Positions 1,976-28,016 are shown, numbered from the stretch's first letter. The stretch: DNA of 28,016 nucleotides from Steroidobacteraceae bacterium (GCA_036511555.1 DATCBZ010000174.1:1-28016), one strand, 5' to 3'. Translations and numbers: made by a program. The notes: generated by a model from the letters alone, not told the origin.

Positions 1976-1981
1976 ATTATA
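1976..1981 (-). promoter_or_regulatory. Candidate sigma70 -10 box (TATAAT) for the DUF1820-purL unit
   Basis: Exact TATAAT on the minus strand about 37 nt upstream of ATG 1939, in a divergent intergenic gap. No convincing -35 box. Confidence 0.35.
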
Positions 1982-2058
1982 TGTCCGGACGCGCCGGGGA
2001 AGCGGGTGCGCGCGAAAGGCATTCAGATGAGAAAGGATTTACGACCTCTGGGGCAACC

Positions 2059-6300: not shown

Positions 6301-6812
6301 CGTATCTCATGTACCCGAGGGTATGGCTCGAATATGCCGCTGAGCGCGCGCTTTACGGTGATGTGTCGATTCTGCCAACGTCTGTATTCTTTTATGGGAT
6401 GGAACCGGGGCAGGAGATCAGCGTCACTCTAGAGCGCGGCAAGACGCTTATCGTTTTGTATATCGCCACCAGCGAGCCGCACGAAGATGGCACCCGTACC
6501 GTGTACTTCGAACTGAACGGTCAGCCGCGCTCGGTGCGCGTGGCGGACAGAAGCCAAGTCGCGAAGCGTCCGCCGCAGCGCAAAGCTGAACCGGGTAATC
6601 CGCTGCATCTTGGTGCCCCGATGCCTGGAACAATTGCGACCGTCAATGTAACGGTCGGACGTAAAGTTGCGCGCAGCGACATCCTCGTGACTCTGGAGGC
6701 AATGAAGATGGAGACCGCGGTTCGCGCCGAGAGTGACGGCGAGGTCGCCGAGATTCTGGCAACACCGGGTCAGCAGGTCGATGCGAAAGACCTGCTGATC
6801 GTACTTGCGTAA
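3369..6812 (+). CDS. pyc: Pyruvate carboxylase, single-chain (BC-CT-BCCP)
   Basis: 1147 aa. Biotin carboxylase motifs ANRGEIAIR, HPGYGFLAEN, GGGGRGMR, FIEVNPRIQVEH. Carboxyltransferase motifs DTTMRDAHQSLLATR, WGGATFD, IKDMAG, HFHTHDTSG. Biotinylation motif EAMKM. Confidence 0.98.
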   Translation: MPHIRSVLVANRGEIAIRVMRAASELGLRTVAIYSQEDRFSLHRTKADEAYLVGRDKGAVEAYLDIEDVLRIAREAHVDAIHPGYGFLAENPQFAQACAQAGIIFIGPSPQTMRTLGNKVTARNLATSVDVPVMPATPPLPTDIAACARLAREIGYPVMLKASWGGGGRGMRIVESEAQLTELLPISRREALAAFGNDEVYLEKLVRHARHVEVQILGDSHGGLVHVYERDCTVQRRNQKVVERAPAVFLTDAGRAELCAAALAIGRAVKYVNAGTVEFLQDADSGKFYFIEVNPRIQVEHTVTECATGIDLVKAQIRIAGGARIGTPESGVPLQENIHITAHALQCRITTEDPENNFIPDYGKITAYRSPAGFGVRLDAGTAYTGAIITRSYDSLLVKVTAWSPTPEESIARMHRALWEFRIRGVVTNLRFLEQLITHPRFARGDYTTRFIEETPELFRWPRRRDRATRILTFIGETIVNGAAETRNRVRPARLATPRLPQAALAAAPPGTKQRLDELGPERFAQWMLQQSRVLVTDTTMRDAHQSLLATRMRTIDMTAIAPYYSSLLPELFSVECWGGATFDVALRFLREDPWLRLTTLRERMPNLLLQMLLRSANAVGYTNYPDNVVRFFVARAAARGVDLFRIFDSLNWVENMRVAIDAVLKSGKLCEAAICYSGNLSDPHEKKYTLDYYLKLARGLKACGVHILGIKDMAGLCQPQAAYMLVKALKDEIGLPVHFHTHDTSGIAAASVLAAVDAGVDAVDGAIDSMSGLTSQPNLGSIVEALRHGPRATGLDPAKLRMLSVYWEQVRKLYAAFESDIRAGASEVYVHGMPGGQYTNLREQARALGIEDARWPEVAQAYVSVNQMFGDIIKVTPTSKTVGDLAILMITSGLTAEQVLDPETQVGFPDSVVQLFHGDIGQPLGGFPQALQRKILKGASPLTDRPGASLAAVDLEAERTKISQKLPRPVNDEDLASYLMYPRVWLEYAAERALYGDVSILPTSVFFYGMEPGQEISVTLERGKTLIVLYIATSEPHEDGTRTVYFELNGQPRSVRVADRSQVAKRPPQRKAEPGNPLHLGAPMPGTIATVNVTVGRKVARSDILVTLEAMKMETAVRAESDGEVAEILATPGQQVDAKDLLIVLA

Positions 6813-6813
6813 C

Positions 6814-7635
6814 TCATCGCGGCTTTCGCCCGCTTACGATCGGGACCTGCCACACCGCGTAATCGCGCGGGTTGCGGATGCTGGCAATGACGTATTCAAA
6901 CAGAGCGCGCGCCTCGTTCGCGGGCAACGCGGTTTTTGCACCAATCGCATCGACATAGCCATCGCGCCACGCCTCCAGCATTGTGGCGAATGTCTCGCGC
7001 GGCACGCGCAGTGTATCGACGGTGACATAGTCGACACGCAGATCGGTAACTCCCAGATCGTGCAGCAAAGACCAGGTGCGACGGCCGATACGCGCATCCG
7101 CCCCGGTATTGCGCGCATACGCAATCGCGCCCTCTTGCCACAACCGGTCTGGCTCGAGCTCGCGAGCGATCATTTGCAGCATTCCGTAATCTTCGCTTAA
7201 GACGTGCAGCCAGCCGCCGGCTTTGCAGACGCGCAGCAGTTCCCGCAGCACCTTCTCCGGTTCAGGAATTGATTGCGTCACGTGGCGGCATACCACGAGA
7301 TCAAATTGCTGCGTGGCAAAATGAAGTTCAAACGCATCGCCCTGCTCAAATTGCAGGCGCGGCGCAAGATCAACATAGCGGTGGGTCGCATACGCAATCG
7401 AGCTCGATAGAATGTCGACGCCAATCACAGTGGCCTGCTCATATGCAATCGCAAGGCGCGAAGTAATCTCACCGCTACCACAGCCGATATCGGCAATGCG
7501 GCATTCTCCCGCAAGTCCATAGCGCGCAAAGAGCAGCTCCTCCTGCGGCCAAATTGCACGCGCCTGCGCCGCAAGCGTGCGAATCATGGATTCATCGGCC
7601 ATCTGTTGGGCGTGTGGGTTGCGATTGGTGCTCAT
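6814..7635 (-). CDS. Class I SAM-dependent methyltransferase, substrate unknown
   Basis: Motif I IADIGCGSGEIT, acidic GVDIL, QGDAF, FDLVVCRHV and LRVCKAGG. Start overlaps the stop of the upstream lipoprotein gene (ATGA, 7632-7635). Confidence 0.85.
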   Translation of the reverse strand: MSTNRNPHAQQMADESMIRTLAAQARAIWPQEELLFARYGLAGECRIADIGCGSGEITSRLAIAYEQATVIGVDILSSSIAYATHRYVDLAPRLQFEQGDAFELHFATQQFDLVVCRHVTQSIPEPEKVLRELLRVCKAGGWLHVLSEDYGMLQMIARELEPDRLWQEGAIAYARNTGADARIGRRTWSLLHDLGVTDLRVDYVTVDTLRVPRETFATMLEAWRDGYVDAIGAKTALPANEARALFEYVIASIRNPRDYAVWQVPIVSGRKPR

Positions 7636-8303
7636 TGAGCATTACTCAAGCCGCGCTCGGCGGCGCGCAACCACTCGGCGCGATCGGCACTATCGGCAAG
7701 CGTGCGCGCAGCATCACGGGCGCGCGCGTAGCTTGCACGTGCATCGGTGGCGGCTCCCTGTTTGGCCTGCGCCTCGGCAAGCGCCAACAGATTCGGCGGA
7801 TAGGCAGGCCGCAGGGCAGCGGCACGCCGCGCGGCGGCAAGCCCGCGCTCAGGATCTCCTGGCCCAAGAGGCCAGCCCGGCGCACGGATCAACACCAGCG
7901 CCTGTACGCGCGCTGGCCCGGCATTATCGTAAGCGGGATCGACTGCTTCGGCCTGCTCAAGACTTGCGAGCATCTCGTTCAACAACGAAGGTGCACGCGT
8001 CGGGTGTTCCTTCGCGTTGAGACCCAGTGCGACCGCTCGGCCGTACAGACAGGCGGCGTCGTGCGGCGCGGTCTGAATACAAGTCTCAGCATCGTGGCGC
8101 GCCGCATCGGCCAGCTCTGCTCTGACATGCGGGTCAGATTCGTGCTCACTGCGCTCGGCAGCAGTTGCGATCGACGCGCTAAGCGTTGCAACCGGCACAG
8201 GAGCGGCACCCGCTGCAGGAGTCGGCGTGGGGTTTCGCGGTGGTGTCGTGCATGCCGCAAACGCCAGGAATGCAGGCGCCGCACACGCGAGCCGCAGTTT
8301 CAC
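7632..8303 (-). CDS. Helical-repeat (TPR/TatT-like) lipoprotein; candidate BstC-like lipid carrier
   Basis: Signal peptide with lipobox-like LAFAAC, Pro/Ala linker, then an all-alpha repeat body with CLYGRAVALG and DPAYDNAGPARVQALVLIRAPGWPLGPGD, resembling TRAP-T (TatT)-family TPR lipoproteins. GTG start overlaps the upstream stop (GTGA). Confidence 0.6.
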   Translation of the reverse strand: MKLRLACAAPAFLAFAACTTPPRNPTPTPAAGAAPVPVATLSASIATAAERSEHESDPHVRAELADAARHDAETCIQTAPHDAACLYGRAVALGLNAKEHPTRAPSLLNEMLASLEQAEAVDPAYDNAGPARVQALVLIRAPGWPLGPGDPERGLAAARRAAALRPAYPPNLLALAEAQAKQGAATDARASYARARDAARTLADSADRAEWLRAAERGLSNAQ

Positions 8304-9073
8304 GGCCGTGACGGCGCAGGCGGCAGTTGTGGCACTACAAAGCCGCGCAGGCGAAGGTTCGCCAGCACTTCGGCGTTGGCTGCAGACCCGGACATGCTCA
8401 ACAGGGCCGCACGCAATGGCGCCACTTGCGTCTTGGGCACGCGGGCGTCAACGACGGCGAGGATTGCCGTGGGCAGGGGCGCCGATTCCTTGACGGCTTG
8501 CAGCTCGCCGGCAAAGGGCAGACTTGCCAGTGCGCCCATCTGCGTCGCATCAAGGAGCGCCGTGGACTGCTCCCCCGCGGCAATGCGTCGCAACACCGAA
8601 AGCACCTGAGCGCTCTGTGAAATCTTGACGTCTGCGGGCAGTGCCCAGTCAGCCAGCGCGTAGCCGCGCACGAAGTCCGGTGCGTAGCCTGCAATGCTGA
8701 GAATGCTGTATCCGGACAGGGAAGCAGGTCCGCTCACGCGGCCTTTTTTCGCGACCAGCGTCCAGTGCTCCTTGAAACCTACTGCCGTCACGTCCGCCTG
8801 TACAAGCGGTGCAAGCTTAAGAGCGACCGCGTGTTCGACAAAGAACGGGAACGGCACGAGCGCAAGCGCTGCCTCCGGCGTTGCAAGTTTCGCAAGACCG
8901 CCCTCCTCGGTCGCATCGTACGTTGCCTTAAGGCTGCCGGCAGGCCACTTGGCAGCTTGAGCGACAGCGACGGCAAAGGCATCGAGAAACGGTTGCGCAT
9001 CGCCGGCCGCGCCGGGATAACCCGGCGCACAGAACACTAAAGTCGCAACCGCACCGGCCAATAACATAGTCAT
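8300..9073 (-). CDS. Periplasmic binding protein, PhnD/SsuA-like type II fold; candidate BstB-like shuttle
   Basis: 257 aa with alternating beta/alpha pattern typical of type II binding proteins (ALALVPFPFF, WTLVAKKG, VLRRIAAGEQSTALLD, SAPLPTAILAV, LRAALLSM). The N-terminal hydrophobic stretch is very short. No ABC ATPase or permease nearby. Confidence 0.55.
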   Translation of the reverse strand: MTMLLAGAVATLVFCAPGYPGAAGDAQPFLDAFAVAVAQAAKWPAGSLKATYDATEEGGLAKLATPEAALALVPFPFFVEHAVALKLAPLVQADVTAVGFKEHWTLVAKKGRVSGPASLSGYSILSIAGYAPDFVRGYALADWALPADVKISQSAQVLSVLRRIAAGEQSTALLDATQMGALASLPFAGELQAVKESAPLPTAILAVVDARVPKTQVAPLRAALLSMSGSAANAEVLANLRLRGFVVPQLPPAPSRP

Positions 9074-9102
9074 TCCACTAGGCTATCATCCCGGGGCGCG
9101 AT

Positions 9103-11421
9103 GTGCCTGCGCGGTTTTTAGAGCCTAATTTGCCGCGAATGAACGTGCCCGCCTCGCCCGCACTCGTTCGGTTTTTCCTGCGCGTCTTGAAGGCGCGCGG
9201 CTTTATCGCAGCAGCGTTCTTGCTCGCCGCCGCCGCCGGGCTTTACGGCGCAACGCAAGTGCCCAGTGATCCGGCAATCGACCGACTGATCGTGGCTGAC
9301 GACCCGGACGCACGTGCCGCACGGGCGTTGGAGAAGCTGTTTCCCGAGGGCGAGCATGCGCTACTCATGCTGGAGGCGCCCGATCCCTTGAGTGCGGCCG
9401 CGTTGCGCGCGGCCGATGACCTCACAAACAAGCTTTCGCAGCTAGCGCACGTCGAGGCGCTAAGTCTCGTGACGCTTTATCGGCACGCGGGAGCTACCGC
9501 CGCGATCGGGGCCGATGAGGCCCTACGGATACGCAAATTCGCGACCGGCACCTTATTGTTTCGGCGTGCCGGCCTTCTGGGCGACCATTACCTTGGCATC
9601 GCACTTGAGCTGCGGGTGCACTCGCCCGCCGAGCGCGACCAAGCGTTGAGTAACATCGAGGCGCTAACGAAGCCATTCGAGACCGGCGGCGGCCCTTTTA
9701 CGGCGCTGCGCAGGGTCGGATCACCGTGGCTCGATGCGTGGCTTGAGGCGAAGACTTCCACCGCATCGACGCACGTAATGCCGCTCTTCGGTGTATTTCT
9801 CATGGCGCTGATCGTCGTGGTATTTCGTTCGTGGCGCGCGCTCGCGGCCATCGTATTGACGCTCGGCGCCGTAGTTGCGATGGCCATGGGGCTCGCCGAT
9901 CCGTTGAGCTGGCCGAACACGATCGTCTCGGCGCTCGTGCCACTGACGGTGCTGGTTACGACGACGGCGACGCTTGTGTATATCCACACCCGTTACATCG
10001 AACGTCAGGATGGTCTGCCGCTCATCGAGCATCACGCACATGCACTTGCGAACAAATTCCTACCCTGCACCGCGTCGATGTTCGCAACCGCGATCGGCTT
10101 TGCGGCGCTGGCGGTGTCGGACATTCGCCCGATCCGGCAGATGGGCTTGTGGACAGCAAGTGGACTCATCGTGGCGTGGATCGGTAGCTTTACTTTATTC
10201 CCCGCGCTGCAATCACTGCTGCGCGCGCCGACGCGTGCCGAACGCGCGCCGGTAGGACGCATATTTAGCGCGTTCGTCGATCATTGGATACCATTTACAA
10301 GGCGCTACCGATGGCCATTGGTGGGAACCGCGATCGTCGTGATGCTGTGCGGCGCGGCGGCGCTTTTCGGCGTGCCGGGCAAACTCGCACCGCTCGCCCT
10401 GCAAACCGACTCTCTCGCCTATATCAATCCAAAAGTTGCGGCCGCCCGCGATACGCGCGAATTTGAGCGTACCAATGGCCTGACCGTCAGGGAGCTGTGG
10501 CTGCAAACAGCGGACGGGGAGGCACTGCAGCCGCAGTTTCTGCTGGCGATTGAAAAACTCACGCGGCGCCTGGAACGCGACCCACGCATCACAGCGGTCG
10601 ACGGGCCGACCTCGGCGCTACGTTGGGCGCAGTATTTCCAAACCGGCTCAGATCATTTGCCATCCGATCCGCAAGCATGGCCTAAGCTTGCCGCCGATCT
10701 GGAGCAGATTCTGCTGACGCAGCCTGGCGCGCGCGACTACGTCGACGTCGCGAGCCTCGCGAATGCGCGACTCAGCATTCGCGGCCGCGGCGCAGCCTTC
10801 GGCGGCCCGGGGGCAATGCGTGCGTTCATCGAGAACGCCTGGCACGAGGAGCAAATGCAGGACGCGGCCCTGCGCAATGTACACGCACGAGTCGCAGGCC
10901 AGGGCGTGCTCAATGATCAGATCACGCTGCGGTTGATACCAAGCTTGATTCAAAGCTTTGCGATCACGGCGAGCGTAATTTTCCTCGCATTCTTATTCGT
11001 GTTTCGCAGCCCCGCGGCGCGTTTGATGGCAATGATCCCCTCGCTGTTCGCGATTCTGGGCGCTTTTCTCCTGATGCGCGTGACTGGTATCATTTTGAAC
11101 ATCGCGACTATCCTCATCGGCTCGACCGTGTTGGGATCTACCGAGAATGATCAGATTCATTTTTTCTACCATTTCCAGGAAGGCCGGTCGACGGGTTCGA
11201 CCGCGGGGGCGCTGCGGCATGCACTGCTCGTGGCGGGCCGTCCCATCGCCTTTGCCACGCTGATCAACGCCGGCGGCTTTGTGGCTCTGAGCTTTTCCGA
11301 TCTTCCGCCGCTGCGTCAATTTGGCATTGTCTCTGCTTCGGCTTTCGTGCTGGCATTGCTTGCTGATTTTACTGCGCTGCTGGGAGCAATGTGGATCTTG
11401 GACCGCAAGTCGAAAACATGA
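9103..11421 (+). CDS. MMPL-family RND transporter; candidate BstA/HpnN-like lipid exporter
   Basis: 772 aa with two repeats of TM + periplasmic loop + five-TM bundle. Repeat markers SWRALAAIVL/SPAARLMAMIP, SDIRPIRQMG/SDLPPLRQFG and GSTENDQIH. Start is GTG 9103 or ATG 9139. Confidence 0.85.
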   Translation: MPARFLEPNLPRMNVPASPALVRFFLRVLKARGFIAAAFLLAAAAGLYGATQVPSDPAIDRLIVADDPDARAARALEKLFPEGEHALLMLEAPDPLSAAALRAADDLTNKLSQLAHVEALSLVTLYRHAGATAAIGADEALRIRKFATGTLLFRRAGLLGDHYLGIALELRVHSPAERDQALSNIEALTKPFETGGGPFTALRRVGSPWLDAWLEAKTSTASTHVMPLFGVFLMALIVVVFRSWRALAAIVLTLGAVVAMAMGLADPLSWPNTIVSALVPLTVLVTTTATLVYIHTRYIERQDGLPLIEHHAHALANKFLPCTASMFATAIGFAALAVSDIRPIRQMGLWTASGLIVAWIGSFTLFPALQSLLRAPTRAERAPVGRIFSAFVDHWIPFTRRYRWPLVGTAIVVMLCGAAALFGVPGKLAPLALQTDSLAYINPKVAAARDTREFERTNGLTVRELWLQTADGEALQPQFLLAIEKLTRRLERDPRITAVDGPTSALRWAQYFQTGSDHLPSDPQAWPKLAADLEQILLTQPGARDYVDVASLANARLSIRGRGAAFGGPGAMRAFIENAWHEEQMQDAALRNVHARVAGQGVLNDQITLRLIPSLIQSFAITASVIFLAFLFVFRSPAARLMAMIPSLFAILGAFLLMRVTGIILNIATILIGSTVLGSTENDQIHFFYHFQEGRSTGSTAGALRHALLVAGRPIAFATLINAGGFVALSFSDLPPLRQFGIVSASAFVLALLADFTALLGAMWILDRKSKT

Positions 11422-12416
11422 GCGACGCGCAGGCCCCCAGCATTGCTGAAATGCGTGCCGCTGCCGAACGCATCGCGCCGCACATTCTGCAAACGGCGAC
11501 GCAGCGCTGGCACGCAGTGCAACTCGACGCGCGCCTTGGCCGGCAGACAGAACTCTTCTTGAAACTCGAGCTCTTCCAGCGCACCGGCACTTTTAAGTTG
11601 CGCGCGGCGATGCTCAACGTTCTTAGCCTCGATGCCGCCGGACGACAGCACGGCGTCACAGCGGTCAGCGCCGGCAACCATGCTATAGCGGTCGCTTGCG
11701 CTGCGCAGCGCGCGGGTGTCTCGGCTAAAGTTGTCATGCTGGCGACTGCCAATGCGCTGCGCGTCGCAGCGGCACAGTCTTTCGATGCCGAAATCATCAT
11801 GGCACCCGATGGCCGCACCGCGTTCGCCACCGCGCAGTCAATCTGCAGTACGGAGGGCCGTGCGTTTATTCATCCCTTCGACGGGCGCAACGTCGTTCTC
11901 GGTACGGGCGGGGTCGGAATTGAACTTCTGGATCAAGTCCCGCAGCTCGAAGCGGTCATTGTCGCGATTGGCGGCGGCGGACTCATGTCGGGCGTTGCTG
12001 CCGCGGTAAAGCAAATGAATCCTGCTTGTCTGGTCTATGGGGTGGAACCGATCGGCGCCGCCATCATGAGCCGCAGTTTTGAGGCCGCATCGGCGCAGAG
12101 CATGGATCGGATCGACACGATTGCCGACAGCCTCGCACCGCCTCTGACAACGCAGGCAACCTACGAGCTGTGCAAGCGCTTTGTCGACGATATTGTCACC
12201 GTATCGGATGACGCCATTTGCGAGTCGCTCGCACTCTTGTATCAGGCAGCAAAGCTTGCGGTTGAACCCGCCGGCGCCGCAGCGCTTGCCGGGGTCTTGG
12301 GCCCGCTGGCCGCGCGCCTTGCCGGCAAGCGCATCGGTGTAGTGGTCTGCGGTGCTAATATCGACAGTGGCAGTTTCTATCGCTATCTACAGCGCGGCGA
12401 GGCGCTATTGACCTGA
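11418..12416 (+). CDS. PLP-dependent threonine/serine dehydratase-family enzyme without ACT domain
   Basis: KLELFQRTGTFKLRAA (PLP lysine), SAGNHA, IGGGGL, GVEP, DTIADSL, AVEPAGAAALA, CGANID. ATG 11418 overlaps the MMPL stop (ATGA). Confidence 0.88.
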   Translation: MSDAQAPSIAEMRAAAERIAPHILQTATQRWHAVQLDARLGRQTELFLKLELFQRTGTFKLRAAMLNVLSLDAAGRQHGVTAVSAGNHAIAVACAAQRAGVSAKVVMLATANALRVAAAQSFDAEIIMAPDGRTAFATAQSICSTEGRAFIHPFDGRNVVLGTGGVGIELLDQVPQLEAVIVAIGGGGLMSGVAAAVKQMNPACLVYGVEPIGAAIMSRSFEAASAQSMDRIDTIADSLAPPLTTQATYELCKRFVDDIVTVSDDAICESLALLYQAAKLAVEPAGAAALAGVLGPLAARLAGKRIGVVVCGANIDSGSFYRYLQRGEALLT

Positions 12417-12526: not shown

Positions 12527-14431
12527 TCAGACGACGCTTACCGAACGCAGCCGCTCGGGAGCGTGCAGAGCCCACCAGCGCTCAACGCTTGCGCTCAAGC
12601 CCGCAAGATCAAGGCCGGCCGCGGCGAGGCAGCTTTCGCGTGAGCCGTGCTCGATAAACCGGTCGGGTATACCGAGCTGCAAGAGCGGCAGCTGCAGCCC
12701 CTGTACTGCGAGCAACTCGCTGACGCCGCTTCCGGCGCCGCCAATAATGGCATTTTCCTCGATCGTGACTATGGCGCGATGGCGGGCAGCCAGCGCGGTG
12801 ACAAGATCTTTGTCAAGTGGCTTGATGAAGCGCATATTGACAAGCGTAGCGTCCAATCGCTCGGCAATTCTCTGCGCGGAATCAACGAGCGCACCAAATG
12901 CCAGCAGCAGCAGCCCGCTGCGGCCTTCACGGCGCAACTGCGCGCGTCCGAGCGGCAGCGCCGTCATCTCCTCAGCGATTGGCACACCCGGACCCATGCC
13001 GCGCGGAAAGCGCACGGCCGCAGGACCGGCCAAAGTGCTCGCCGTGTACAACATCTGCCGACATTCGTTCTCATCGGCCGGCGCCATCACCACCATGTTG
13101 GGGATACAGCGCAGAAACGTCAGATCGTAACTGCCTTGATGGGTGGCACCGTCGCTGCCAACGAGCCCAGCTCGGTCCAGAGCGAACACAACGGGAAGAT
13201 TTTGCAGGGCGACGTCGTGTATCAGCTGATCGTACGCGCGCTGCAGGAATGTCGAATAGATTGCAACGATCGGCTTATAGCCTTCGACCGCAAGTCCGGC
13301 AGCGAAGGTCACCGCGTGCTGTTCGGCGATCGCCACGTCAAAATAGCGGTCGGGAAACTTTTTGGAAAATTCGACGAGTCCGGAACCTTCGCGCATCGCC
13401 GGCGTGATGCCAATAATCCGTGAGTCATGCGCCGCCATATCGCAGAGCCAGCGACCAAAGATCTGCGAATACGACGGGCCGGTACTTTTTTCCTTAAAAA
13501 TTGTGCCGCTCACCGGATCGAATGGTCCGGGCCCGTGCCATTTGATCGGATCCGCCTCGGCCGGCGCATAGCCCTTACCCTTGCGAGTCACAACATGCAG
13601 AAACTGCGGGCCGCGCAAGTTGGCAAGATTGCGCAACGTCGCAACGAGCGCCTTCACATCGTGGCCATCCATCGGGCCGATGTAATTGAAGCCCAACTCC
13701 TCAAACAGCGTGCCCGGCAGCACCATGCCTTTCAAGTGTTCCTCGGAGCGGCGCGCAAGCTCCCATACGGCGGGCATCTGGCGCAGAACTTTTTTACCGC
13801 TTTCGCGCAGATGAGCGTACATGCGCCCCGACAGGGCGCGCGCGAAATGATTCGACAGCGCTCCGACGTTCTCCGATATCGACATGTCGTTGTCGTTCAG
13901 AATCACCAAAAGATCCGCGGGTAATGAGCCCGCATGATTGAGCGCCTCAAAGGCAAGCCCCGCGGTGAGTGCACCGTCACCGATGATTGCGACGACGCGG
14001 CGACTCTTGCCGCTGCGCTCTGCAGCCACTGCCATGCCAAGCGCCGCACTGATCGAAGTGCTGGAATGACCGACGCCGAAGGTGTCGTATTCGCTTTCGC
14101 TGCGTGTTGGGAAAGGCGCAAGCCCGCGATCCTGCTTGATAGTGTGCAGCTGGTCACGGCGGCCGGTCAGAACCTTGTGCGGATACGCTTGGTGGCCGAC
14201 GTCCCAGACCAAGCGGTCATGCGGTGTATTGAACACGTAATGCAGTGCAATCGTCAGCTCGACCGTGCCGAGCCCTGCGGCAAAATGACCGCCGCGCGTG
14301 GCGACGCTATGGATCAGGAACCGGCGCAGTTCCTCTGCCAGGGGGGCAAGTTTCGTCACCGGCAAGCGCCGCAGGTCTGCGGGTAGCCGGATTGAGTCGA
14401 GCAACCCGTTTTTATCGGCGGAGGAAGTCAT
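12527..14431 (-). CDS. dxs: 1-deoxy-D-xylulose-5-phosphate synthase
   Basis: 634 aa. [40 protein letters not shown] motif [15 protein letters not shown]...[38 protein letters not shown]. Confidence 0.98.
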
Positions 14432-14566: not shown

Positions 14567-15712
14567 TTAGGTCATCGGCTTGCCACAGCGAGCCAATACG
14601 CCGCGCAGATCACGCAGCGCCGGAAACACCTCGTTGTTCCAGTCCGCGCCCTGTGCATCATATGCACGCTGCTCGAACTCCACGATCTCTTTGTCCTCGC
14701 GGAAAATGTTCTCGGTGAACCAGACCACGAATGGCCACACGGCATGGATTAACCCTGGCAAGCGCGGTTTCTTCACGGACAGATACCCATAGGTACGGTT
14801 GGTGCGCTGCTCGGCATCGAGCGGCGTATAACCGAGCCAAACCTCGAGCACGGGATCATTGCTTTGTTGAATGTCACGGCCCACCCACACTTTCAGACTT
14901 TGCGTCGGATAGTCGGTGCGGATCCGCATGTGATCAGAGAAGTCCTTTTTCGCCTCGCCGCGTTTGCGCATCAAGTCCACAATTACCTGTTCGCCGACGG
15001 AAGACTTCCCCGCAGTACGGCTAAAACTGTATTCAACCTGGGCCCATGTCTCGCCATGCTGCCGTCCCAGGCAATGAGCTCTAATTGAACCCATCTGTTT
15101 GCGATGCATGAACTGATGGTTCATGTCGAACAGATTCTCGTGCATGAAGGTGTAGTGGCAGGCGACCTCGCGGTTCAATCGCCGCGTCTTGTAGTCACTG
15201 CGCTGCGAGGAACCCAGCCCGGTCGGCAGCCGGGCCTCCGCCAGGACCGGATCACCCGGGAAGACGAAGATCAGGCCGTCAACCTCGCGCACCGGATAGC
15301 TCTTCACGCCGTTTGGCAGTCGCTCCGACCCTAGGTACGGCACGCTGACGCACTTGCCGCTGTGGTCGTAGGTCCAGCCATGGTAGTGACATTTGAGCTG
15401 TTCGCCGCTGACGACCCCCAGGTGCAGCGGCACCTGACGGTGGGCGCAGCGGTCCTCGAGCGCGAACACCCGACCGCTCTTACCGCGATACAGAGCGATG
15501 GGTTCAGCGGCAAAACGGCGCCCAAGGGTTTTACCCACTTTCAACTCATCGCACCACGCCACGGGGTACCAGTAATCCGGGTGCGCGCCCACGCGCCGCA
15601 GATCGAAAGCGTTGGGCGAATTGGCCGTACGCATGGTGACGAGATTGGAACTGTCTTCGGACATCAGGTCCTCGAAACATCGGTCCAGGACGAAAGAGTA
15701 GCGCGTCGACAC
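14567..15712 (-). CDS. Rieske non-heme iron oxygenase, alpha subunit
   Basis: Rieske motif CAHRQVPLHLGVVSGEQLKCHYHG (CxH-x16-CxxH) and mononuclear Fe motif ENLFDMNHQFMH, plus a distal EDKEIVE. Start is GTG 15712 or ATG 15664. Confidence 0.9.
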   Translation of the reverse strand: MSTRYSFVLDRCFEDLMSEDSSNLVTMRTANSPNAFDLRRVGAHPDYWYPVAWCDELKVGKTLGRRFAAEPIALYRGKSGRVFALEDRCAHRQVPLHLGVVSGEQLKCHYHGWTYDHSGKCVSVPYLGSERLPNGVKSYPVREVDGLIFVFPGDPVLAEARLPTGLGSSQRSDYKTRRLNREVACHYTFMHENLFDMNHQFMHRKQMGSIRAHCLGRQHGETWAQVEYSFSRTAGKSSVGEQVIVDLMRKRGEAKKDFSDHMRIRTDYPTQSLKVWVGRDIQQSNDPVLEVWLGYTPLDAEQRTNRTYGYLSVKKPRLPGLIHAVWPFVVWFTENIFREDKEIVEFEQRAYDAQGADWNNEVFPALRDLRGVLARCGKPMT

Positions 15713-21971: not shown

Positions 21972-22084
21972 GAGAATCCAAGCAAAATCAAGCATAAGAA
22001 ACGCGACAGGAACATTACCATACCGTGTGCAGCATCCCGCACTGCACTGGCAAGGCCTTGCAGTCTTGCGCCGTCCGCGACTGC

Positions 22085-23080
22085 TTACGGTGGCGCCGCA
22101 CGTGCCGCACCCGCAGCGGAGCGCTCGGAGAGGTGCAGGTAGAGGAGTCCGGGCAGCCCCAAGATAAGTTCGCGCGCGCGTTTTGCGAGCGACAACGCCA
22201 GCGCTGCGTCCGCCGGCAAGCCTACCAACGGCGCGAGCAGCAAATAGCCTCCCTCTTGCACGCCAAGTGCACCGGGAACGGCGAACGCGGCGCCGCGAAT
22301 CGCCTGGCCCAGACTTTCCAAGAGCAGCGCGTCAGTCCAGCCGAGCGGGTGTCCAAGCAGTTGCGCAATCAGAAACACCTCGCCCGTGCCGACGAGCCAA
22401 CCGACGAGGCTGAGTACGAAGCTCGCCGCCACCCGAGCACTTCGACCGTAGGTCAGCTGCACCGCGACGTCCATTGCCTCCGCTTGCGTCCTCAACTGAG
22501 ACCAATCCCGCTTACCGGAGAAACGACTCGCAAGACTCATCAGCTTGGCAAAAAAGCCGCGCCGCTGTAGAAGATAAAACCCCCCGACCTGTAGTGCGAG
22601 CAGCGCGCTTGCGAGCAGCGCAGAAGTGCGCAGAACACTTTGGGAAAAGTGACTCGCATGCGCACCCAGGAGCACAACCCCCAGCAGCGCAAAAAGAATC
22701 TGTGCGAAGGTCTGCAGCGTCGTACTAACGGTGATGGCCGCGGCAGCATCCTGCATGCGCATGCCGCGCTGCGCCAGGTGGCGAACCATTAAGACCGGAC
22801 CGCCTAGCTGCCCGGCTGGCAGGAGACTGTTCGCGGATTCGCCCGCCCAGCGCGCGAGCAATGCCTCACGCATTGGTCTGCGCGCCATTGCGCGAACAAA
22901 CAGCACACGGATTGCTGCAGCGTCGAGCACCAATGGCAGCAAATGGAACAACGCAATCAGCAGCAACCCCCAACCGGCAAGCGCTAACGCCGCAACGACC
23001 GCCGGCAGCCCTTGCGAGACGAGCACGCCGACGAACAGCAGCACACCGGCTGACAGGAGCCACGCTGCCGTGCGCGTCAT
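22085..23080 (-). CDS. HpnL-like polytopic membrane protein (lysylphosphatidylglycerol-synthase TM / flippase-like family)
   Basis: 331 aa, mostly hydrophobic, with RWAGESANSLLPAGQLGGP, AAITVSTTLQ, VGWLVGTGEV, ESLGQAIRGAAFAVPGALGVQEGG and SLAKRARELILG, typical of the UPF0104/HpnL family. Confidence 0.75.
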   Translation of the reverse strand: MTRTAAWLLSAGVLLFVGVLVSQGLPAVVAALALAGWGLLLIALFHLLPLVLDAAAIRVLFVRAMARRPMREALLARWAGESANSLLPAGQLGGPVLMVRHLAQRGMRMQDAAAAITVSTTLQTFAQILFALLGVVLLGAHASHFSQSVLRTSALLASALLALQVGGFYLLQRRGFFAKLMSLASRFSGKRDWSQLRTQAEAMDVAVQLTYGRSARVAASFVLSLVGWLVGTGEVFLIAQLLGHPLGWTDALLLESLGQAIRGAAFAVPGALGVQEGGYLLLAPLVGLPADAALALSLAKRARELILGLPGLLYLHLSERSAAGAARAAPP

Positions 23081-25086: not shown

Positions 25087-26256
25087 ATGGATTCCGTCAC
25101 TTCCGATGCAGTCTATCAAGATCGGATTCTCCCCTACGTCTCGCGCACCTTTGCGCTGACGATCCCACAACTGCCGCCGGCACTGCGTACTGCGGTGACC
25201 AGTGCCTACCTGCTCTGTCGGATCGCCGACACGATCGAGGATGAGCCGGCGTTGTCGGCCGCAGAAACGCTTGCGTTTCTGCAACGCTTTCGTGCGACGG
25301 TATCCGAGTGTGCCGAGTCAGCACCGTTGGCAAGGGATCTGTCGCGGCGTCTGTCGGACCGCACATTGCCCGAAGAGCGCGATCTTGTGAATAACATGGA
25401 GCGCGTCATTCGCATGACGGGCGCTCTGGATGAGCTGCCACGATCCGCCATTCAGCGCTGCGTCGATCTCATGTGTTATGGCATGCCGCATTTCCAACTG
25501 AGCGCAAGCGTACGGGGGCTTGCCCGCTCGAGCGACCTCGACGACTACTGCTACTACGTCGCTGGCGTGGTCGGCGAGATGCTCACCGAGCTGTTTTGCG
25601 CCCACTCTGCGGACATCGCACGGCGGCGTCCTGCCCTGCAAAGCCTGGCGGCCTCTTTTGCGCAGGGGCTGCAGATGACGAATATTCTAAAGGACGTCTG
25701 GGAAGACCGCAGCCGCGGCGCCTGCTGGTTGCCGCAGGATGTCTTCACGCGCCATGGGGTGGACCTTGCACCACTGTCGCCGGAGAGCCAAGACGCGGGT
25801 TTCGCTGCGGGAATGTGCGAACTCACTGCAGTCGCACACGCGCACCTTCGTAATGCGCTTGCCTTTACGCTGCTGGTTCCGGCAAAGGAAACCGGCATCC
25901 GGCGCTTCTGTCTGTGGGCCATCGGACTTGCCGTCCTCACGCTGCAGAAAATTCATGGGAATCCGCAGTTTACGGCCGGAAAGGAAGTAAAGGTGTCGCG
26001 CTCCGCCGTTGCCATGACTCGCCTCCTGACAAGCGCTACCGTGCGCAGCGATTGGCTTCTTAGACAACTTTTTGAATTCGCCGCGCGCGGCCTGCCGCTC
26101 GCACCACTTCCGCCCGCCGTGCCGCGAACAACGACCGTTCTCGGGGCGTCCGAGCCGATCCCGCTCCATGGCCGGCATGCGCCGCGCCCCCAGCCCGACG
26201 CGAGCGCGCCGCTTGAGCGCGTGCGCCGGCGCTCCGACGGAAGTGCAGCCACATGA
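25087..26256 (+). CDS. sqs: Squalene synthase, single-enzyme (FPP to squalene) type
   Basis: VSRTFALTI, YLLCRIADTIEDE, YCYYVAGVVG, GLQMTNILKD, RRFCLWAIGLAVLTL and VKVSR. These resemble SQS-type enzymes such as Methylococcus SQS more than CrtB/HpnD. Confidence 0.8.
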   Translation: MDSVTSDAVYQDRILPYVSRTFALTIPQLPPALRTAVTSAYLLCRIADTIEDEPALSAAETLAFLQRFRATVSECAESAPLARDLSRRLSDRTLPEERDLVNNMERVIRMTGALDELPRSAIQRCVDLMCYGMPHFQLSASVRGLARSSDLDDYCYYVAGVVGEMLTELFCAHSADIARRRPALQSLAASFAQGLQMTNILKDVWEDRSRGACWLPQDVFTRHGVDLAPLSPESQDAGFAAGMCELTAVAHAHLRNALAFTLLVPAKETGIRRFCLWAIGLAVLTLQKIHGNPQFTAGKEVKVSRSAVAMTRLLTSATVRSDWLLRQLFEFAARGLPLAPLPPAVPRTTTVLGASEPIPLHGRHAPRPQPDASAPLERVRRRSDGSAAT

Positions 26257-28016
26257 GTGTTTCGCGCACACGCACGGCGCCGGGAACACCTAAGCCCAAG
26301 ACTGCACGCTCGGAATTGTTGTCGCATACTCTCGCGCGCGTCAGGGAGTCATCGCTGCTTGACCGCTGCATTGCGGCCGCGCGCGACGCTCTCGTCGATG
26401 CGCAGCACGAGCATGGCTACTGGTTATTCGAGTTGGAAGCGGACTGCACGATTCCCGCCGAATACATTTTGATGATGCATTTCCTCGACGAGATCGACGC
26501 GCCGCTTGTGGCCAAGATCGCCGTCTACTTGCGCGCTCATCAGGCGGAGCACGGTGGCTGGCCGCTCTACCACAACGGCGACTTCGACTTAAGCTGCAGC
26601 GTCAAGGCATATTTTGCTTTGAAGCTCGCAGGCGACGATCCGGACGCTGCACATATGCGACGCGCACGTGCAGCAATTCTGCAGCGCGGCGGTGCCGCGC
26701 GTGCGAATGTGTTTACGCGCATCGCACTGGCACTGTTCGGGCAGCTGCCCTGGCGCGGCGTACCTTACATTCCCGTGGAAATCATGCTGCTGCCACGTTG
26801 GTTTCCCTTTCATATCGACAGGGTTTCTTACTGGTCCCGCACGGTCATGGTGCCGCTCCTGATTCTGTGCACACGAAAGCCCATCGCTAAGAATCCGCGC
26901 AACATCAACATTCGCGAGTTGTTCACGACGCCACCGGAGGAGGAACGCGACTACTTCCGTGGTAGTCGCCGGCAGCCGGGATTTCTTGCCAAGCTCTTCC
27001 TGGTGCTGGATCGAATCGGCCGCACCATAGACCCGCTTGTGCCCCGAGCCGTGCGCGCACATGCAACGCAGCGCGCGCTTGACTGGATGCTCGAGCGGTT
27101 GAACGGCGAAGAGGGCCTGGGCGCAATCTTTCCGGCAATGGTCAATGCCTTGGAAGTGATGGCGGTACTGGGATTTGACAGCAACGATCCGCGGCGTGTC
27201 ACGGCCAAACGGGCACTGCAGAAGCTCCTCGTGGTCAGTTCGTCAAGCGCCTACTGCCAGCCATGCGTCTCCCCGGTCTGGGACTCTGCATTGGCAGGCC
27301 TTGCTATGCAGGAAGCCGGCTGCGCCGTGTCGGTCGACGCATCGGTTCGAGCGCTCGACTGGTTGAAGTCACAGCAGCTGCTGGATGATCCGGGTGATTG
27401 GCGCATTCGCAGGCCAGAGTTAGCCGGCGGCGGATGGGCGTTTCAGTTCGCGAACAGCTATTACCCCGATCTTGACGATACCGCGGTGGTCGCTTGGGCC
27501 ATGCACCAGTCGCGTGATAGCGAGCGCTATACCGAGACTGTCAACCGCGCTCTTGATTGGCTGGTGGGAATGCAAAGTAGCAACGGCGGCTTTGCGGCAT
27601 TTGATGCGGACAATACCTACTATTACCTGAATGAGATTCCGTTTGCCGATCATGGTGCACTCCTTGATCCGCCGACGAGCGATGTGAGTGCGCGCGTCGT
27701 CGCGGCGCTCGCACGCATTGCTCGACCGCAGGACAAAGCGGCGCTCGATCGAGCAATCGTTTACTTGCGCAGTGAGCAGATGGCCGACGGCTCTTGGTTC
27801 GGCCGCTGGGGCACAAACTACATTTACGGAACGTGGTCGGTATTGACGGCCTTCGCCCAAGCAGGCATCAGCGCGACTGACCCTGCAGTGCGTAAAGCGG
27901 TCAGCTGGCTGACTGCACGCCAGAACGAGGATGGTGCCTGGGGTGAGAGCAACGCAACATACTCGCAGCAGAGCTATGTTGTCGCGGACAAGTCGCCAAA
28001 TACACCGTATCAAACC
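26253..28016 (+). CDS. shc: Squalene-hopene cyclase; runs off the right edge
   Basis: Not in the track (no stop in the window). ATG 26253 overlaps the sqs stop (ATGA). Manual translation gives GYWLFELEADCTIPAEY, GGWPLYH, ANVFTRI, SYWSRTVMVPL, YCQPCVSPVWD, GGWAFQF.N.YYPDLDDTA (DXDD protonation motif), MQSSNGGFAAFDADN and GSWFGRWGTNYIYGTW. Confidence 0.97.
   Translation, partial: MSVSRTRTAPGTPKPKTARSELLSHTLARVRESSLLDRCIAAARDALVDAQHEHGYWLFELEADCTIPAEYILMMHFLDEIDAPLVAKIAVYLRAHQAEHGGWPLYHNGDFDLSCSVKAYFALKLAGDDPDAAHMRRARAAILQRGGAARANVFTRIALALFGQLPWRGVPYIPVEIMLLPRWFPFHIDRVSYWSRTVMVPLLILCTRKPIAKNPRNINIRELFTTPPEEERDYFRGSRRQPGFLAKLFLVLDRIGRTIDPLVPRAVRAHATQRALDWMLERLNGEEGLGAIFPAMVNALEVMAVLGFDSNDPRRVTAKRALQKLLVVSSSSAYCQPCVSPVWDSALAGLAMQEAGCAVSVDASVRALDWLKSQQLLDDPGDWRIRRPELAGGGWAFQFANSYYPDLDDTAVVAWAMHQSRDSERYTETVNRALDWLVGMQSSNGGFAAFDADNTYYYLNEIPFADHGALLDPPTSDVSARVVAALARIARPQDKAALDRAIVYLRSEQMADGSWFGRWGTNYIYGTWSVLTAFAQAGISATDPAVRKAVSWLTARQNEDGAWGESNATYSQQSYVVADKSPNTPYQT

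What the first reader, a model, noticed from the sequence alone, without database searches (positions are those of the whole stretch)
7632..11421. BstABC-like lipid transport trio (MMPL + PhnD-fold shuttle + TatT-like lipoprotein) near a hopanoid, not sterol, cyclase
Seen: an MMPL transporter divergent from a coupled PhnD-fold protein and TPR lipoprotein, with no ABC ATPase, ABC permease or TRAP M/Q subunits. Established, as I recall: the Methylococcus capsulatus sterol transport proteins are BstA (RND), BstB (phosphonate-binding-fold periplasmic protein) and BstC (TRAP-T-like lipoprotein). Inference: this is a homologous inner-membrane-to-outer-membrane relay, but the only cyclase in the window is SHC, about 15 kb away, so the cargo could be hopanoid or phosphonolipid. 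That would extend the Bst system beyond sterols.
Basis: partly seen in the sequence, partly recalled or inferred. Interest (0 to 1): 0.8.

Follow-up and report, generated by a model that had tools for sequence, protein, structure and literature searches.

The report
Bst-like lipid transport trio, no sterols
A peat-soil gammaproteobacterium that can make hopanoids but apparently not sterols carries distant relatives of two Methylococcus sterol-carrier proteins beside a membrane pump; this probably moves a hopanoid or another greasy envelope lipid, but the "shuttle" protein has lost its export signal.

Summary
9103-11421(+) is an MMPL/RND pump. It is divergent from a translationally coupled PhnD-fold protein (8300-9073) and a TPR lipoprotein (7632-8303). 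No ABC or TRAP membrane parts lie in the window.

The two small proteins are true but distant homologues of BstB and BstC: 27% and 31% identity, and the best PDB hits by sequence. By fold BstB is clearly the best match; BstC ties with another TatT. They score far below NCBIfam's equivalog cut-offs. The pump is not specifically BstA- or HpnN-like.

The trio is a fixed unit in at least 80 species of peat and soil Steroidobacteraceae. All 19 family genomes that hold it have a squalene-hopene cyclase, and none has an oxidosqualene cyclase or a canonical HpnN. In several lineages it lies 3-15 kb from shc-sqs-dxs or an HpnL module. So a sterol cargo made by the cell is very unlikely, and a hopanoid cargo is the best guess (about 0.45).

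Two results temper this. A sister lineage in Acidobacteriota carries bstABC-like operons, mostly in genomes with no cyclase detected. And in this clade the BstB-like protein has no signal peptide, in 79 of 80 loci, so a periplasmic relay is unproven.

Verdict: a new variant of a known kind.

The parts
9103..11421 (+). MMPL/RND inner-membrane transporter, 772 aa (alternative ATG start at 9139). Nearest family is HAE3; it is not a BstA or HpnN equivalog.
   Evidence: Pfam MMPL 57.4 bits. NCBIfam: HAE3 121, HpnN 73 and 53, BstA 31 bits, all below their cut-offs. No PDB sequence hit even at E 10. About 12 TM segments with two periplasmic loops of about 170-190 aa. 63-84% identical and always divergent from the B gene in relatives.
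9074..9102 (.). Short divergent intergenic region between the MMPL and the B gene. It runs to 9138 if the MMPL starts at ATG 9139. Two in-frame stops lie just upstream of the B gene's ATG.
   Evidence: no signal-peptide coding potential upstream in any frame.
8300..9073 (-). BstB-like PhnD-fold lipid-binding protein, 257 aa, with no signal peptide. Beta-strand 1 is residues 10-15, inside the invariant CAPGYPG motif.
   Evidence: PDB phmmer finds only 7T1M. NCBIfam BstB is the only hit, 61.7 bits against a cut-off of 350. 27% identity over 245 aa to a true BstB. AF2 pLDDT 95.5. Foldseek and VIA both rank 7T1M first. 57 of 71 BstB cavity positions are apolar or small.
7632..8303 (-). BstC/TatT-like nine-helix TPR lipoprotein, 223 aa, with lipobox Cys18. 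It lacks the N-terminal helices H1-H3 of BstC. It keeps the invariant loop APGWPLGPGD (residues 141-150).
   Evidence: PDB phmmer best hit is 7T1S, E 1.7e-13, then 8G53 at 8e-4. NCBIfam BstC is the only hit, 64.4 bits against 350. AF2 pLDDT 91.3. VIA Z 19.2 to 7T1S and 19.1 to 8G53. Cys18 is invariant in 37 homologues.
6814..7635 (-). Class I SAM methyltransferase, translationally coupled to the C gene. It is an accessory gene seen only in the window's own genus.
   Evidence: Pfam Methyltransf_31/11/25. Present next to the trio in only 4 of 80 loci.
25087..28016 (+). Context, not part of the module: squalene synthase and squalene-hopene cyclase (the cyclase is cut by the contig end).
   Evidence: SQS_PSY 191 bits. 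TIGR01507 737 bits, above the cut-off of 431.
22085..23080 (-). Context: HpnL-family membrane protein, a hopanoid-associated family.
   Evidence: TIGR03476 319.9 bits, above the cut-off of 195.65. HpnL tracks SHC in the family and is present in 18 of 19 trio genomes.
14567..15712 (-). Context: Rieske oxygenase whose best family match is the sterol C-4 methyl oxidase SdmA.
   Evidence: NF052579 156 bits against a cut-off of 600. 28% identity over 348 aa to a true SdmA.

Best explanation
The three genes form a self-contained module for moving a bulky hydrophobic envelope lipid.

- The driver is a proton-motive-force RND/MMPL pump in the inner membrane.
- It is paired with two soluble lipid-binding proteins that descend from the same ancestors as the Methylococcus sterol carriers BstB and BstC.
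- One is a bilobed PhnD-fold protein with a large apolar cleft. The other is a ring-shaped TPR lipoprotein tethered in the periplasm.

In this Steroidobacteraceae clade the cargo is most likely a hopanoid or a hopanoid derivative made by the nearby sqs-shc-hpnL genes. It would be exported towards the outer membrane in organisms where no canonical HpnN was found. The C protein's invariant APGWPLGPGD loop is predicted to dock on the mouth of the B protein's cleft for hand-over.

Shown: the homology, the folds, the apolar cavity positions, the fixed gene unit, and the co-occurrence with SHC but not OSC.

Inferred: the cargo, the direction of transport, the B-C contact, and the compartment in which the signal-less B protein acts.
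For: Homology and fold: B is closest to BstB by sequence and by fold; C is closest to BstC by sequence, while its fold match ties with another TatT.

Cavity: 57 of the 71 BstB cavity positions are apolar or small here, against 50 in BstB. Six are charged, against nine. Glu118 is kept as Glu102. Tyr120 becomes Trp104.

Fixed unit: the gene order is conserved in 77 of 80 species loci, while the flanking genes vary.

Co-occurrence in 201 family genomes:
- B is in 19 genomes.
- All 19 are among the 43 with SHC. None of the 158 others holds it.
- No OSC is in any of the 19. Five of these are at least 96% complete. The one OSC-like genome, G620, lacks the trio.
- Canonical HpnN is in only 3 genomes, none with the trio. 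The best HpnN-like hit in the window's own genome is this MMPL.

Synteny:
- shc lies 10-15 kb away in the window and three other genomes of its genus.
- shc-sqs(-dxs) lies 3-6 kb away in three other species, in three different layouts (L079, L080, L097).
- An HpnL module lies 1-8 kb away in three more loci.

Complex prediction for B plus C: ipSAE 0.46 against a best control of 0.01, rated 'weak support'. The calibration mark was reached by 51 of 78 solved complexes and 2 of 108 mismatches, but scores of 0.60 or under were reached by only 5 of those 78 solved complexes and by all 4 passing mismatches. The interface pairs C residues 142-152 with B residues 20, 156-162 and 177-181, which are cavity-mouth positions.
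Against: - The wider family is not tied to triterpenoids. In an Acidobacteriota class, B homologues occur in 61 of 111 genomes, and 45 of those 61 showed no squalene or oxidosqualene cyclase at E 1e-30. Four such loci have no isoprenoid neighbours.
- The 19-of-19 overlap with SHC is largely phylogenetic. The six trio genera lie within the eight SHC genera. Within-genus evidence is weak: 1 of 9 genomes in g327 and 2 of 9 in g329 hold the trio.
- 64 of 80 loci show only the trio among the window's genes, and 2 more only B and C; none of these has a hopanoid gene within 10 kb.
- TatT relatives of the C protein bind fatty acids (PMC11713862). By fold the C model is as close to the TatT-family chain 8G53 as to BstC.
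- The B protein has no signal peptide in 79 of 80 loci, whereas C is an exported lipoprotein. A B-to-C hand-over in the periplasm needs an unknown export route.
- The MAG is only 78.7% complete.
Confidence: 0.45

Rival explanations
1. The machine is the same, but the cargo is not a hopanoid. It carries another hydrophobic envelope component, such as long-chain fatty acids, phospholipid, a phosphono- or amino-lipid made by the HpnL/CDP-alcohol/AEP genes, or a carotenoid. The link to shc is inherited genomic background.
For: Most Acidobacteriota genomes with B/C homologues showed no cyclase. TatT homologues bind palmitate (PMC11713862), and 8G53 ties with BstC in fold score. Three loci place the trio beside the HalD-HpnL-NTP-transferase-Omp85 module rather than beside shc. 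In this window that module carries an AEP phosphonate pathway.
Against: All 19 trio genomes have SHC. Three independent layouts place shc-sqs directly beside the trio. The B protein is nearer to the sterol carrier than to any other solved PhnD-fold protein. HpnL tracks SHC rather than the trio, being present in 38 genomes against 19.
Confidence: 0.35
2. It is an uptake or sensing system for exogenous sterols or steroids from plant and fungal litter, in a family named after a steroid degrader. B and C would capture steroids for catabolism.
For: There is homology to sterol-binding BstB and BstC. NCBI labels relatives as Steroidobacteraceae. PhnD and TatT families are classically import components. 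The neighbouring Rieske protein has the sterol oxidase SdmA as its best match.
Against: The partner is an MMPL/RND protein, a family known for export. No importer is linked: no ABC or TRAP membrane parts. No steroid-catabolic genes recur next to the trio in 80 loci. The trio is absent from 181 of the 200 other family genomes sampled and is confined to SHC carriers.
Confidence: 0.07
3. In this clade the relay has been rewired. The signal-less B protein works in the cytoplasm, as a chaperone that takes hydrophobic products from membrane-associated biosynthetic enzymes to the pump or to modifying enzymes. C works separately in the periplasm. There is no direct B-to-C hand-over.
For: At most 16 residues, with no Lys or Arg, precede the conserved Cys in 79 of 80 loci. 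Stops lie 3 codons upstream. The AF2 model places residues 10-15 as core strand beta-1. Model residue 5 aligns to residue 22 of BstB in the 7T1M entry's numbering, near the start of the mature, signal-less protein. Every more distant homologue carries a signal peptide of 24-54 aa. The pump partner was also changed and inverted in this clade: 25% identity to the pump of the sister lineage, against 46% for B and 39% for C.
Against: B and C stay translationally coupled or adjacent in every locus. The complex prediction places C's most conserved loop on B's cleft mouth, though the support is weak. RND pumps of this type are not known to take cargo from a cytoplasmic carrier protein (my own knowledge, not tested here).
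Confidence: 0.3

Closest known systems
BstABC sterol transport proteins of Methylococcus capsulatus (Zhai et al. 2024, eLife, PMC10942540; PDB 7T1M, 7T1S)
   Same: It has the same three-part plan: an MMPL/RND protein, a PhnD-fold carrier and a TatT-like lipoprotein. B and C are the nearest solved relatives by sequence, and B also by fold; C's fold match ties with another TatT. The cleft is apolar, Glu118 is kept, and the KAPxWPxGxGD loop is kept in C. An SdmA-like Rieske gene lies nearby.
   Different: Identity is only 27% (B) and 31% (C), far below the equivalog cut-offs. The pump is not BstA-like: 772 aa against 907 aa, with similarity only in the TM region. It is transcribed divergently rather than within bstA-bstB-bstC-sdmA-sdmB. 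There is no SdmB and no OSC. B has no signal peptide. C lacks helices H1-H3. Tyr120 is replaced by Trp.
HpnN hopanoid RND transporter (Burkholderia multivorans, PDB 5KHS), with the proposed periplasmic partners HpnM, HpnS and HpnT (Lawrence et al. 2025 preprint, PMC12324291)
   Same: Proposed job: an RND-driven move of hopanoids to the outer membrane, helped by a soluble carrier and an outer-membrane lipoprotein. The system occurs in shc-bearing diderms and is sometimes syntenic with shc.
   Different: The pump scores 73 bits on TIGR03480 against a cut-off of 752. The helpers have different folds: PhnD and TPR here, against MlaC-like, MlaA-like and lipocalin there. The preprint does not mention Bst-, PhnD- or TatT-like genes.
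TatT / TPAT T-component lipoproteins (Tp0956, PDB 3U64; Enhygromyxa salina TatT, PDB 8G52)
   Same: The helical-ring TPR lipoprotein fold: VIA Z 17.0 to Tp0956 (3U64) and 17.2 to Es_TatT (8G52). The unassigned TPAT-family entry 8G53 scores higher, at Z 19.1. The family binds lipids.
   Different: No TRAP P, Q or M partners are present. Sequence is nearer to BstC (E 1.7e-13) than to 8G53 (E 8e-4). The known TatT cargo is long-chain fatty acid.
PhnD/PtxB/AioX phosphonate- and oxyanion-binding proteins of ABC importers (Pfam PF12974)
   Same: The bilobed class II periplasmic-binding-protein fold: VIA Z 16-20.
   Different: Identity is 9-16%. The Pfam hit covers only the C-terminal half, at 30 bits. 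There is no ABC permease or ATPase. The cleft positions are apolar. There is no signal peptide.

Membership tests
BstB (NCBIfam NF045601, equivalog) | Whole-protein score at or above the curated cut-off of 350 bits | tested here: not met
   61.7 bits. True BstB proteins score 405-465 bits.
BstB | BstB-type bilobed fold with a large apolar cavity | tested here: met
   Foldseek ranks 7T1M first, E 2.3e-19, TM 0.76. VIA Z 23.5, rmsd 3.3 over 249 residues, against 19.8 for the next chain. 57 of 71 cavity positions are apolar or small.
BstB | N-terminal Sec signal peptide (periplasmic location) | tested here: not met
   Only 14 residues precede the conserved Cys, and none is Lys or Arg. Stops lie 3 codons upstream. 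This holds in 79 of 80 clade loci. No signal-peptide predictor was available, so the judgement rests on alignment and on the model.
BstC (NCBIfam NF045602, equivalog) | Whole-protein score at or above the curated cut-off of 350 bits | tested here: not met
   64.4 bits. A true BstC scores 431 bits.
BstC / TatT superfamily | Lipoprotein signal plus a helical-ring TPR fold | tested here: met
   The lipobox Cys18 is invariant. The model has nine helices. VIA Z is 19.2 to 7T1S and 19.1 to 8G53. Generic TPR proteins score 16-18, so the fold alone does not discriminate. The sequence does.
BstA (NCBIfam NF045600, equivalog) | Whole-protein score at or above 1400 bits, or full-length similarity to BstA | tested here: not met
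   31.2 bits. BLASTP to a true BstA gives 25% identity over 139 aa of TM region only.
BstABC system | Co-directional bstA-bstB-bstC operon with sdmA and sdmB, in osc-bearing genomes | tested here: not met
   The pump is divergent here. An SdmA-like gene is 3 kb away and there is no SdmB in the window. No OSC was found in the 19 trio genomes. The canonical operon was seen in G178.
BstABC system | Selective binding of 4-methylsterols | not testable with these tools
   This needs a pull-down or MST assay with purified protein.
HpnN (TIGR03480 / NF052374) | Score at or above the cut-off (752 / 1100 bits) | tested here: not met
   72.8 and 52.6 bits.
MMPL family, RND superfamily (Pfam PF03176) | Pfam gathering score and a 12-TM, two-loop topology | tested here: met
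   57.4 bits against 20.5. Hydropathy profile. The HAE3 subfamily model TIGR00921 scores 121 bits against a cut-off of 352, which is not met.
PhnD-type ABC phosphonate importer | Linked ABC permease and ATPase, and a polar anion pocket | tested here: not met
   No ABC genes lie in the window or recur in 80 loci. Cavity positions are apolar by alignment. The pocket geometry itself was not computed.
TPAT (TatT-associated TRAP transporter) | Linked TRAP P, Q and M genes | tested here: not met
   None in the window or in the neighbourhoods examined.

The most novel reading that the evidence does not exclude
The trio is a third, undescribed route for hopanoid trafficking, distinct from HpnN alone and from the proposed HpnN-HpnM/S/T routes. 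It would be built from sterol-carrier homologues and be common in peat and soil Steroidobacteraceae in which no HpnN was found. Its carrier protein has lost its signal peptide. So it either reaches the periplasm by a non-classical route or picks up hopanoids on the cytoplasmic side before the pump. Together with the sister operons in Acidobacteriota where no cyclase was detected, the B-C pair would then be a general, re-targetable lipid hand-over module with exchangeable RND partners.
Probability: 0.3. Interest if true: 0.75.

Novelty: new variant of a known kind. Interest (0 to 1): 0.55.

Why it matters
How hopanoids reach the outer membrane is only partly known. HpnN is the one tested component, and its periplasmic partners are still only predicted.

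In the Steroidobacteraceae sampled, SHC was found in 43 of 201 genomes but canonical HpnN in only 3. Nearly half of the SHC carriers hold this trio instead. If it carries hopanoids, it fills that gap for an abundant group of peat and soil bacteria.

It would also show that the only known bacterial sterol-carrier folds are not specific to sterols. That gives a matched pair of natural systems for asking what makes a pocket prefer a sterol or a hopanoid.

The survey also warns against reading 'Bst-like' as 'sterol' or 'hopanoid'. Most homologous operons in one Acidobacteriota class sit in genomes where no cyclase was detected.

The conserved loss of the carrier's signal peptide is an unexplained feature that can be tested directly.

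Tried and rejected
- Window from Methylococcus itself: rejected. Identity to true Bst proteins is only 27-31%.
- Cyclase is an OSC: rejected.
- OSC elsewhere: not found in this MAG (78.7% complete), nor over the cut-off in 201 family genomes.
- Canonical HpnN in the MAG: not found.
- Hidden signal peptide upstream of the B gene, by another start, another frame or read-through: rejected. TGA and TAG lie just upstream, and nothing is coded in the other frames.
- Other conserved neighbours, sought by all-against-all ORF clustering over 80 loci: none found beyond the trio. High-GC shadow ORFs blur this method.
- Omp85, Rieske protein or methyltransferase as a fourth core component: rejected as core. 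They are present near the trio in only 4-7 of 80 loci.
- HpnL as a discriminator of trio carriers: rejected. It tracks SHC, not the trio.
- First alignment (A1): too diverse for the locus scan. A2 was used instead, and its best 80 loci were all from the close clade.
- PDB sequence search with the MMPL and the Omp85: no hits.
- RNA evidence: no RNA run holds the stretch. It was found only in DNA runs from peat and soil, four studies besides the probable source sample.
- Complex prediction for B plus C: only 'weak support' (0.46 against a control of 0.01). It is cited as a lead, not as proof.
- Completeness values for the Acidobacteriota genomes were not given, so 'no cyclase' there means 'not found'.
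- Unpublished genome G039: the count of 3 true-BstB genomes includes it. No other claim rests on it, and its locus L011 was not used.

Full report
**What is there.** The window is a whole 28-kb contig of a MAG: 2.26 Mb, 408 contigs, 78.7% complete. ORF listing and Pfam/NCBIfam scans give the following map.

| Coordinates | Strand | Gene |
|---|---|---|
| 2-1579 | - | purL fragment |
| 1981-3300 | + | T6SS FHA protein |
| 3369-6812 | + | pyruvate carboxylase |
| 6814-7635 | - | SAM methyltransferase |
| 7632-8303 | - | 223-aa lipoprotein (C) |
| 8300-9073 | - | 257-aa PhnD-fold protein (B) |
| 9103-11421 | + | MMPL/RND |
| 11391-12416 | + | PLP dehydratase |
| 12527-14431 | - | dxs |
| 14567-15712 | - | Rieske oxygenase |
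| 15861-17198 | - | Omp85-family barrel |
| 17224-21207 | - | AEP phosphonate pathway: aminotransferase, phosphonopyruvate decarboxylase, PEP mutase fused to a nucleotidyltransferase |
| 21204-21995 | - | second nucleotidyltransferase |
| 22085-23080 | - | HpnL (320 bits, cut-off 196) |
| 23077-23958 | - | HalD-like oxygenase |
| 23897-24562 | - | CDP-alcohol phosphatidyltransferase |
| 25087-26256 | + | squalene synthase |
| 26253-28016 | + | squalene-hopene cyclase (737 bits, cut-off 431; OSC model 174 bits against 851) |

No ABC or TRAP membrane component is present. The B, C and methyltransferase genes overlap stop-to-start by 4 nt.

**Homology to Bst.**
- phmmer against all PDB sequences finds a single hit for B: 7T1M (MCA1014, BstB), E 1.6e-12.
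- For C the best hit is 7T1S (BstC), E 1.7e-13. Next is 8G53, a TPAT/TatT protein, at 8e-4.
- In NCBIfam the only hits for B and C are the BstB and BstC equivalog models, at 61.7 and 64.4 bits against cut-offs of 350.
- I recovered a canonical bstA-bstB-bstC-sdmA-sdmB operon from a complete gammaproteobacterial genome, G178. All five proteins there are above their cut-offs.
- Direct comparison with that operon gives B 27% over 245 aa, C 31% over 127 aa, and the window's Rieske protein against SdmA 28% over 348 aa. The MMPL against BstA gives only 25% over 139 aa of TM helices.
- The pump scores better on the generic HAE3 model (121 bits) than on HpnN (73 and 53) or BstA (31). It has no PDB sequence hit at all.

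**Structures.**
- B: AF2 with a 69-sequence alignment gives pLDDT 95.5. Foldseek ranks 7T1M first, at E 2.3e-19 and TM 0.76; the next chain is ArrX at 6.5e-14. VIA-align gives Z 23.5 (rmsd 3.3, 249 residues) against 19.8 for the next chain.
- C: pLDDT 91.3, with nine helices spanning residues 38-221. 7T1S is first by Foldseek E-value, 6e-7. By VIA it ties with 8G53 (Z 19.2 and 19.1), and generic TPR proteins follow at 16-18. So the fold alone does not single out BstC; the sequence does.
- C aligns to BstC residues 66-260 and lacks the H1-H3 segment.
- I mapped the 71 cavity residues that Zhai et al. list for BstB (PMC10942540, Table 4) through a family alignment. 57 are apolar or small in the window protein, against 50 in BstB. 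Six are charged, against nine. Glu118 is kept as Glu102. Tyr120 becomes Trp104, which is nearly invariant in this family.
- I could not read the model coordinates, so the pocket geometry was not computed.

**Distribution and context in the window's family.**
- Both proteins have more than 1,300 clusters at 90% identity in metagenomes. Where they carry NCBI names, these are mostly Steroidobacteraceae.
- A motif scan of species-representative genomes found 252 loci. The best 80 are peat and soil MAGs at 55-79% identity.
- In 77 of the 80 the order is MMPL(-), B(+), C(+); the other three hold only two of the three genes within the contig stretch fetched. 64 show only the trio among the window's genes. 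An ORF clustering found no further gene conserved in more than 16 loci outside the trio region.
- In the GTDB family, 19 of 201 sampled genomes hold B. All 19 are among the 43 with SHC: 41 over the cut-off and two as frameshifted pieces.
- None of the 19 has an OSC. The single OSC-like cyclase, in G620 at 753 bits, is in a genome without the trio.
- Canonical HpnN occurs in three genomes, none with the trio.
- HpnL occurs in 38 genomes and tracks SHC, not the trio.

**Linkage.**
- In the window and in three other genomes of its genus (of four others sampled; in the fourth the two genes lie on separate contigs), shc lies 10-15 kb from B.
- In three species of other genera, shc-sqs(-dxs) lies 3-6 kb from the trio, in three different layouts (L079, L080, L097).
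- In three more (L099, L110, L122) the HalD-HpnL-nucleotidyltransferase-Omp85(-Rieske) module lies 1-8 kb away.
- This repeated, rearranged linkage is the best positive evidence for a hopanoid connection.
- The 19-of-19 overlap is weaker than it looks. The six trio genera sit inside the eight SHC genera, and kin are not independent.

**The control that limits the claim.**
- More distant B homologues (40-49% identity) belong to Acidobacteriota.
- Their loci are bstABC-like. A 909-911-aa MMPL, a signal-peptide-bearing B and a 267-aa C are co-directional in L145 and L146. L147 has B and C with no adjacent pump. One further case (L148) has a divergent 747-aa pump. None of the four has an isoprenoid gene within 10 kb.
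- In that class B occurs in 61 of 111 genomes.
- Only 17 of the 111 have SHC over the cut-off, and 12 of those have B. Four more genomes have only a sub-cut-off, possibly OSC-like cyclase; all four have B.
- So 45 of the 61 carriers showed no cyclase. Completeness was not reported for these genomes.
- B (46%) and C (39%) are far better conserved between the two lineages than the pump (about 25%).
- The B-C pair thus looks like an old, general lipid-handling module whose RND partner and cargo have changed. Cargo has to be argued lineage by lineage.

**The missing signal peptide.**
- In the window, B starts MTMLLAGAVATLVFCAPGYPG. TGA and TAG lie just upstream, separated from the ATG by three codons, and no other frame encodes a leader.
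- The AF2 model makes residues 10-15 the first core strand.
- VIA aligns model residue 5 with residue 22 of BstB in the 7T1M entry's numbering, near the start of the mature, signal-less protein.
- In 79 of 80 clade loci at most 16 residues, none of them Lys or Arg, precede the conserved Cys. Essentially every homologue outside the clade has a signal peptide of 24-54 residues.
- C, in contrast, has an invariant lipobox cysteine and a Pro-rich tether.
- ESMFold2 complex prediction for B plus C (residues 36-223) scored ipSAE 0.46 against a best control of 0.01. The tool rates this 'weak support'. The mark was reached by 51 of 78 solved complexes and 2 of 108 mismatches. Scores of 0.60 or under were reached by only 5 of those 78 solved complexes and by all 4 passing mismatches.
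- The three runs agree. They place C's invariant APGWPLGPGD loop on B residues 20, 156-162 and 177-181, which are cavity-mouth positions.
- A contact between a signal-less B and an exported C is unexplained. Either B reaches the periplasm by another route, or the contact is a relic, or the prediction is wrong.

**Literature.**
- Zhai et al. (PMC10942540) and the 2024 Account (PMC11713862) establish several points. The Bst proteins bind 4-methylsterols. TatT relatives bind long-chain fatty acids. About a quarter of TatT proteins have partners that are not TRAP components.
- A 2025 preprint on hopanoid transport (PMC12324291) proposes the MlaC-like HpnM, the MlaA-like HpnS and the lipocalin-like HpnT as partners of HpnN. 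It also lists hpnL as shc-linked. It does not mention PhnD-, TatT- or Bst-like genes.
- I found no paper linking B/C homologues to hopanoids. Only two literature searches were run.

**Verdict.** This is a new, abundant and architecturally distinct variant of the Bst-type lipid module: a different and divergent pump, a leaderless B and a truncated C. A sterol cargo made by the cell is effectively excluded. A hopanoid cargo is the best-supported guess (about 0.45). Another envelope lipid remains a serious rival (about 0.35). The topology of the pathway is open.

The count of 3 true-BstB genomes includes the unpublished genome G039. No other claim rests on it.

Noticed in passing
window 17224-24562: An AEP phosphonate pathway sits between the Omp85 gene and sqs-shc. 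It comprises a PEP mutase fused to a nucleotidyltransferase, a phosphonopyruvate decarboxylase, an AEP aminotransferase, a second nucleotidyltransferase, HpnL, a HalD-like oxygenase and a CDP-alcohol phosphatidyltransferase. In close relatives (L035, L036, L053, L054) the same module lacks the three phosphonate genes, so here they look like an insertion. Another agent's note (e1-5303972) proposes a phosphonate-capped hopanoid.
   Followed up: partly
window 14567-15712; L110 19699-20730; L122 18327-19418: The Rieske oxygenase's best family match is the sterol C-4 methyl oxidase SdmA (156 bits; 28% identity). It is 82-88% identical across genera in which the B protein is only about 60% identical. 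It repeatedly sits at the end of the HalD-HpnL-NTP-transferase-Omp85 module. No SdmB-like partner or reductase lies in the window. Hopanoids keep a 4,4-dimethyl group, so an SdmA-like attack on it is conceivable but untested.
   Followed up: partly
window 15861-17198; L003/L004 11532-12794; L060 11535-12698: A 420-445-aa Omp85-family barrel lies directly after the C gene in one lineage, and 4.5 kb from the pump here. The Omp85 domain starts at about residue 143 and no POTRA hit was seen. It is near the trio in only 7 of 80 loci, so it is not a core part.
   Followed up: partly
G620:C250:14590-16512 (same GTDB family): One of 201 family genomes has an OSC-like cyclase: 753 bits on TIGR03463, just under the cut-off of 851, against about 210-245 bits for SHC cross-hits. 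It has no SHC and no trio. It may be a sterol producer within Steroidobacteraceae.
   Followed up: no
Acidobacteriota class around G778; loci L145-L148: B/C homologues with an MMPL are in 61 of 111 genomes, and 45 of those showed no squalene cyclase. All four genomes that have only a sub-cut-off, possibly OSC-like cyclase (G818, G845, G848, G860) have a B homologue. In L146 and L147 an fn3 protein and a CarboxypepD_reg/TonB-dependent-like barrel follow the C gene.
   Followed up: partly
window 6814-7635: A class I SAM methyltransferase (BioC/UbiE-like scores only) is translationally coupled to the C gene. This is seen only in the window's own genus (4 of 80 loci). Its substrate is unknown.
   Followed up: no
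G680:C1:2355721-2357488; G625:C4:256662-258371; G635:C4:355487-356888: In three long-contig MAGs, SHC appears as two or three pieces, with in-frame TGA stops in two of them. These are probably long-read frameshift errors rather than pseudogenes. The Rieske gene is likewise split in L002, L037 and L055.
   Followed up: no
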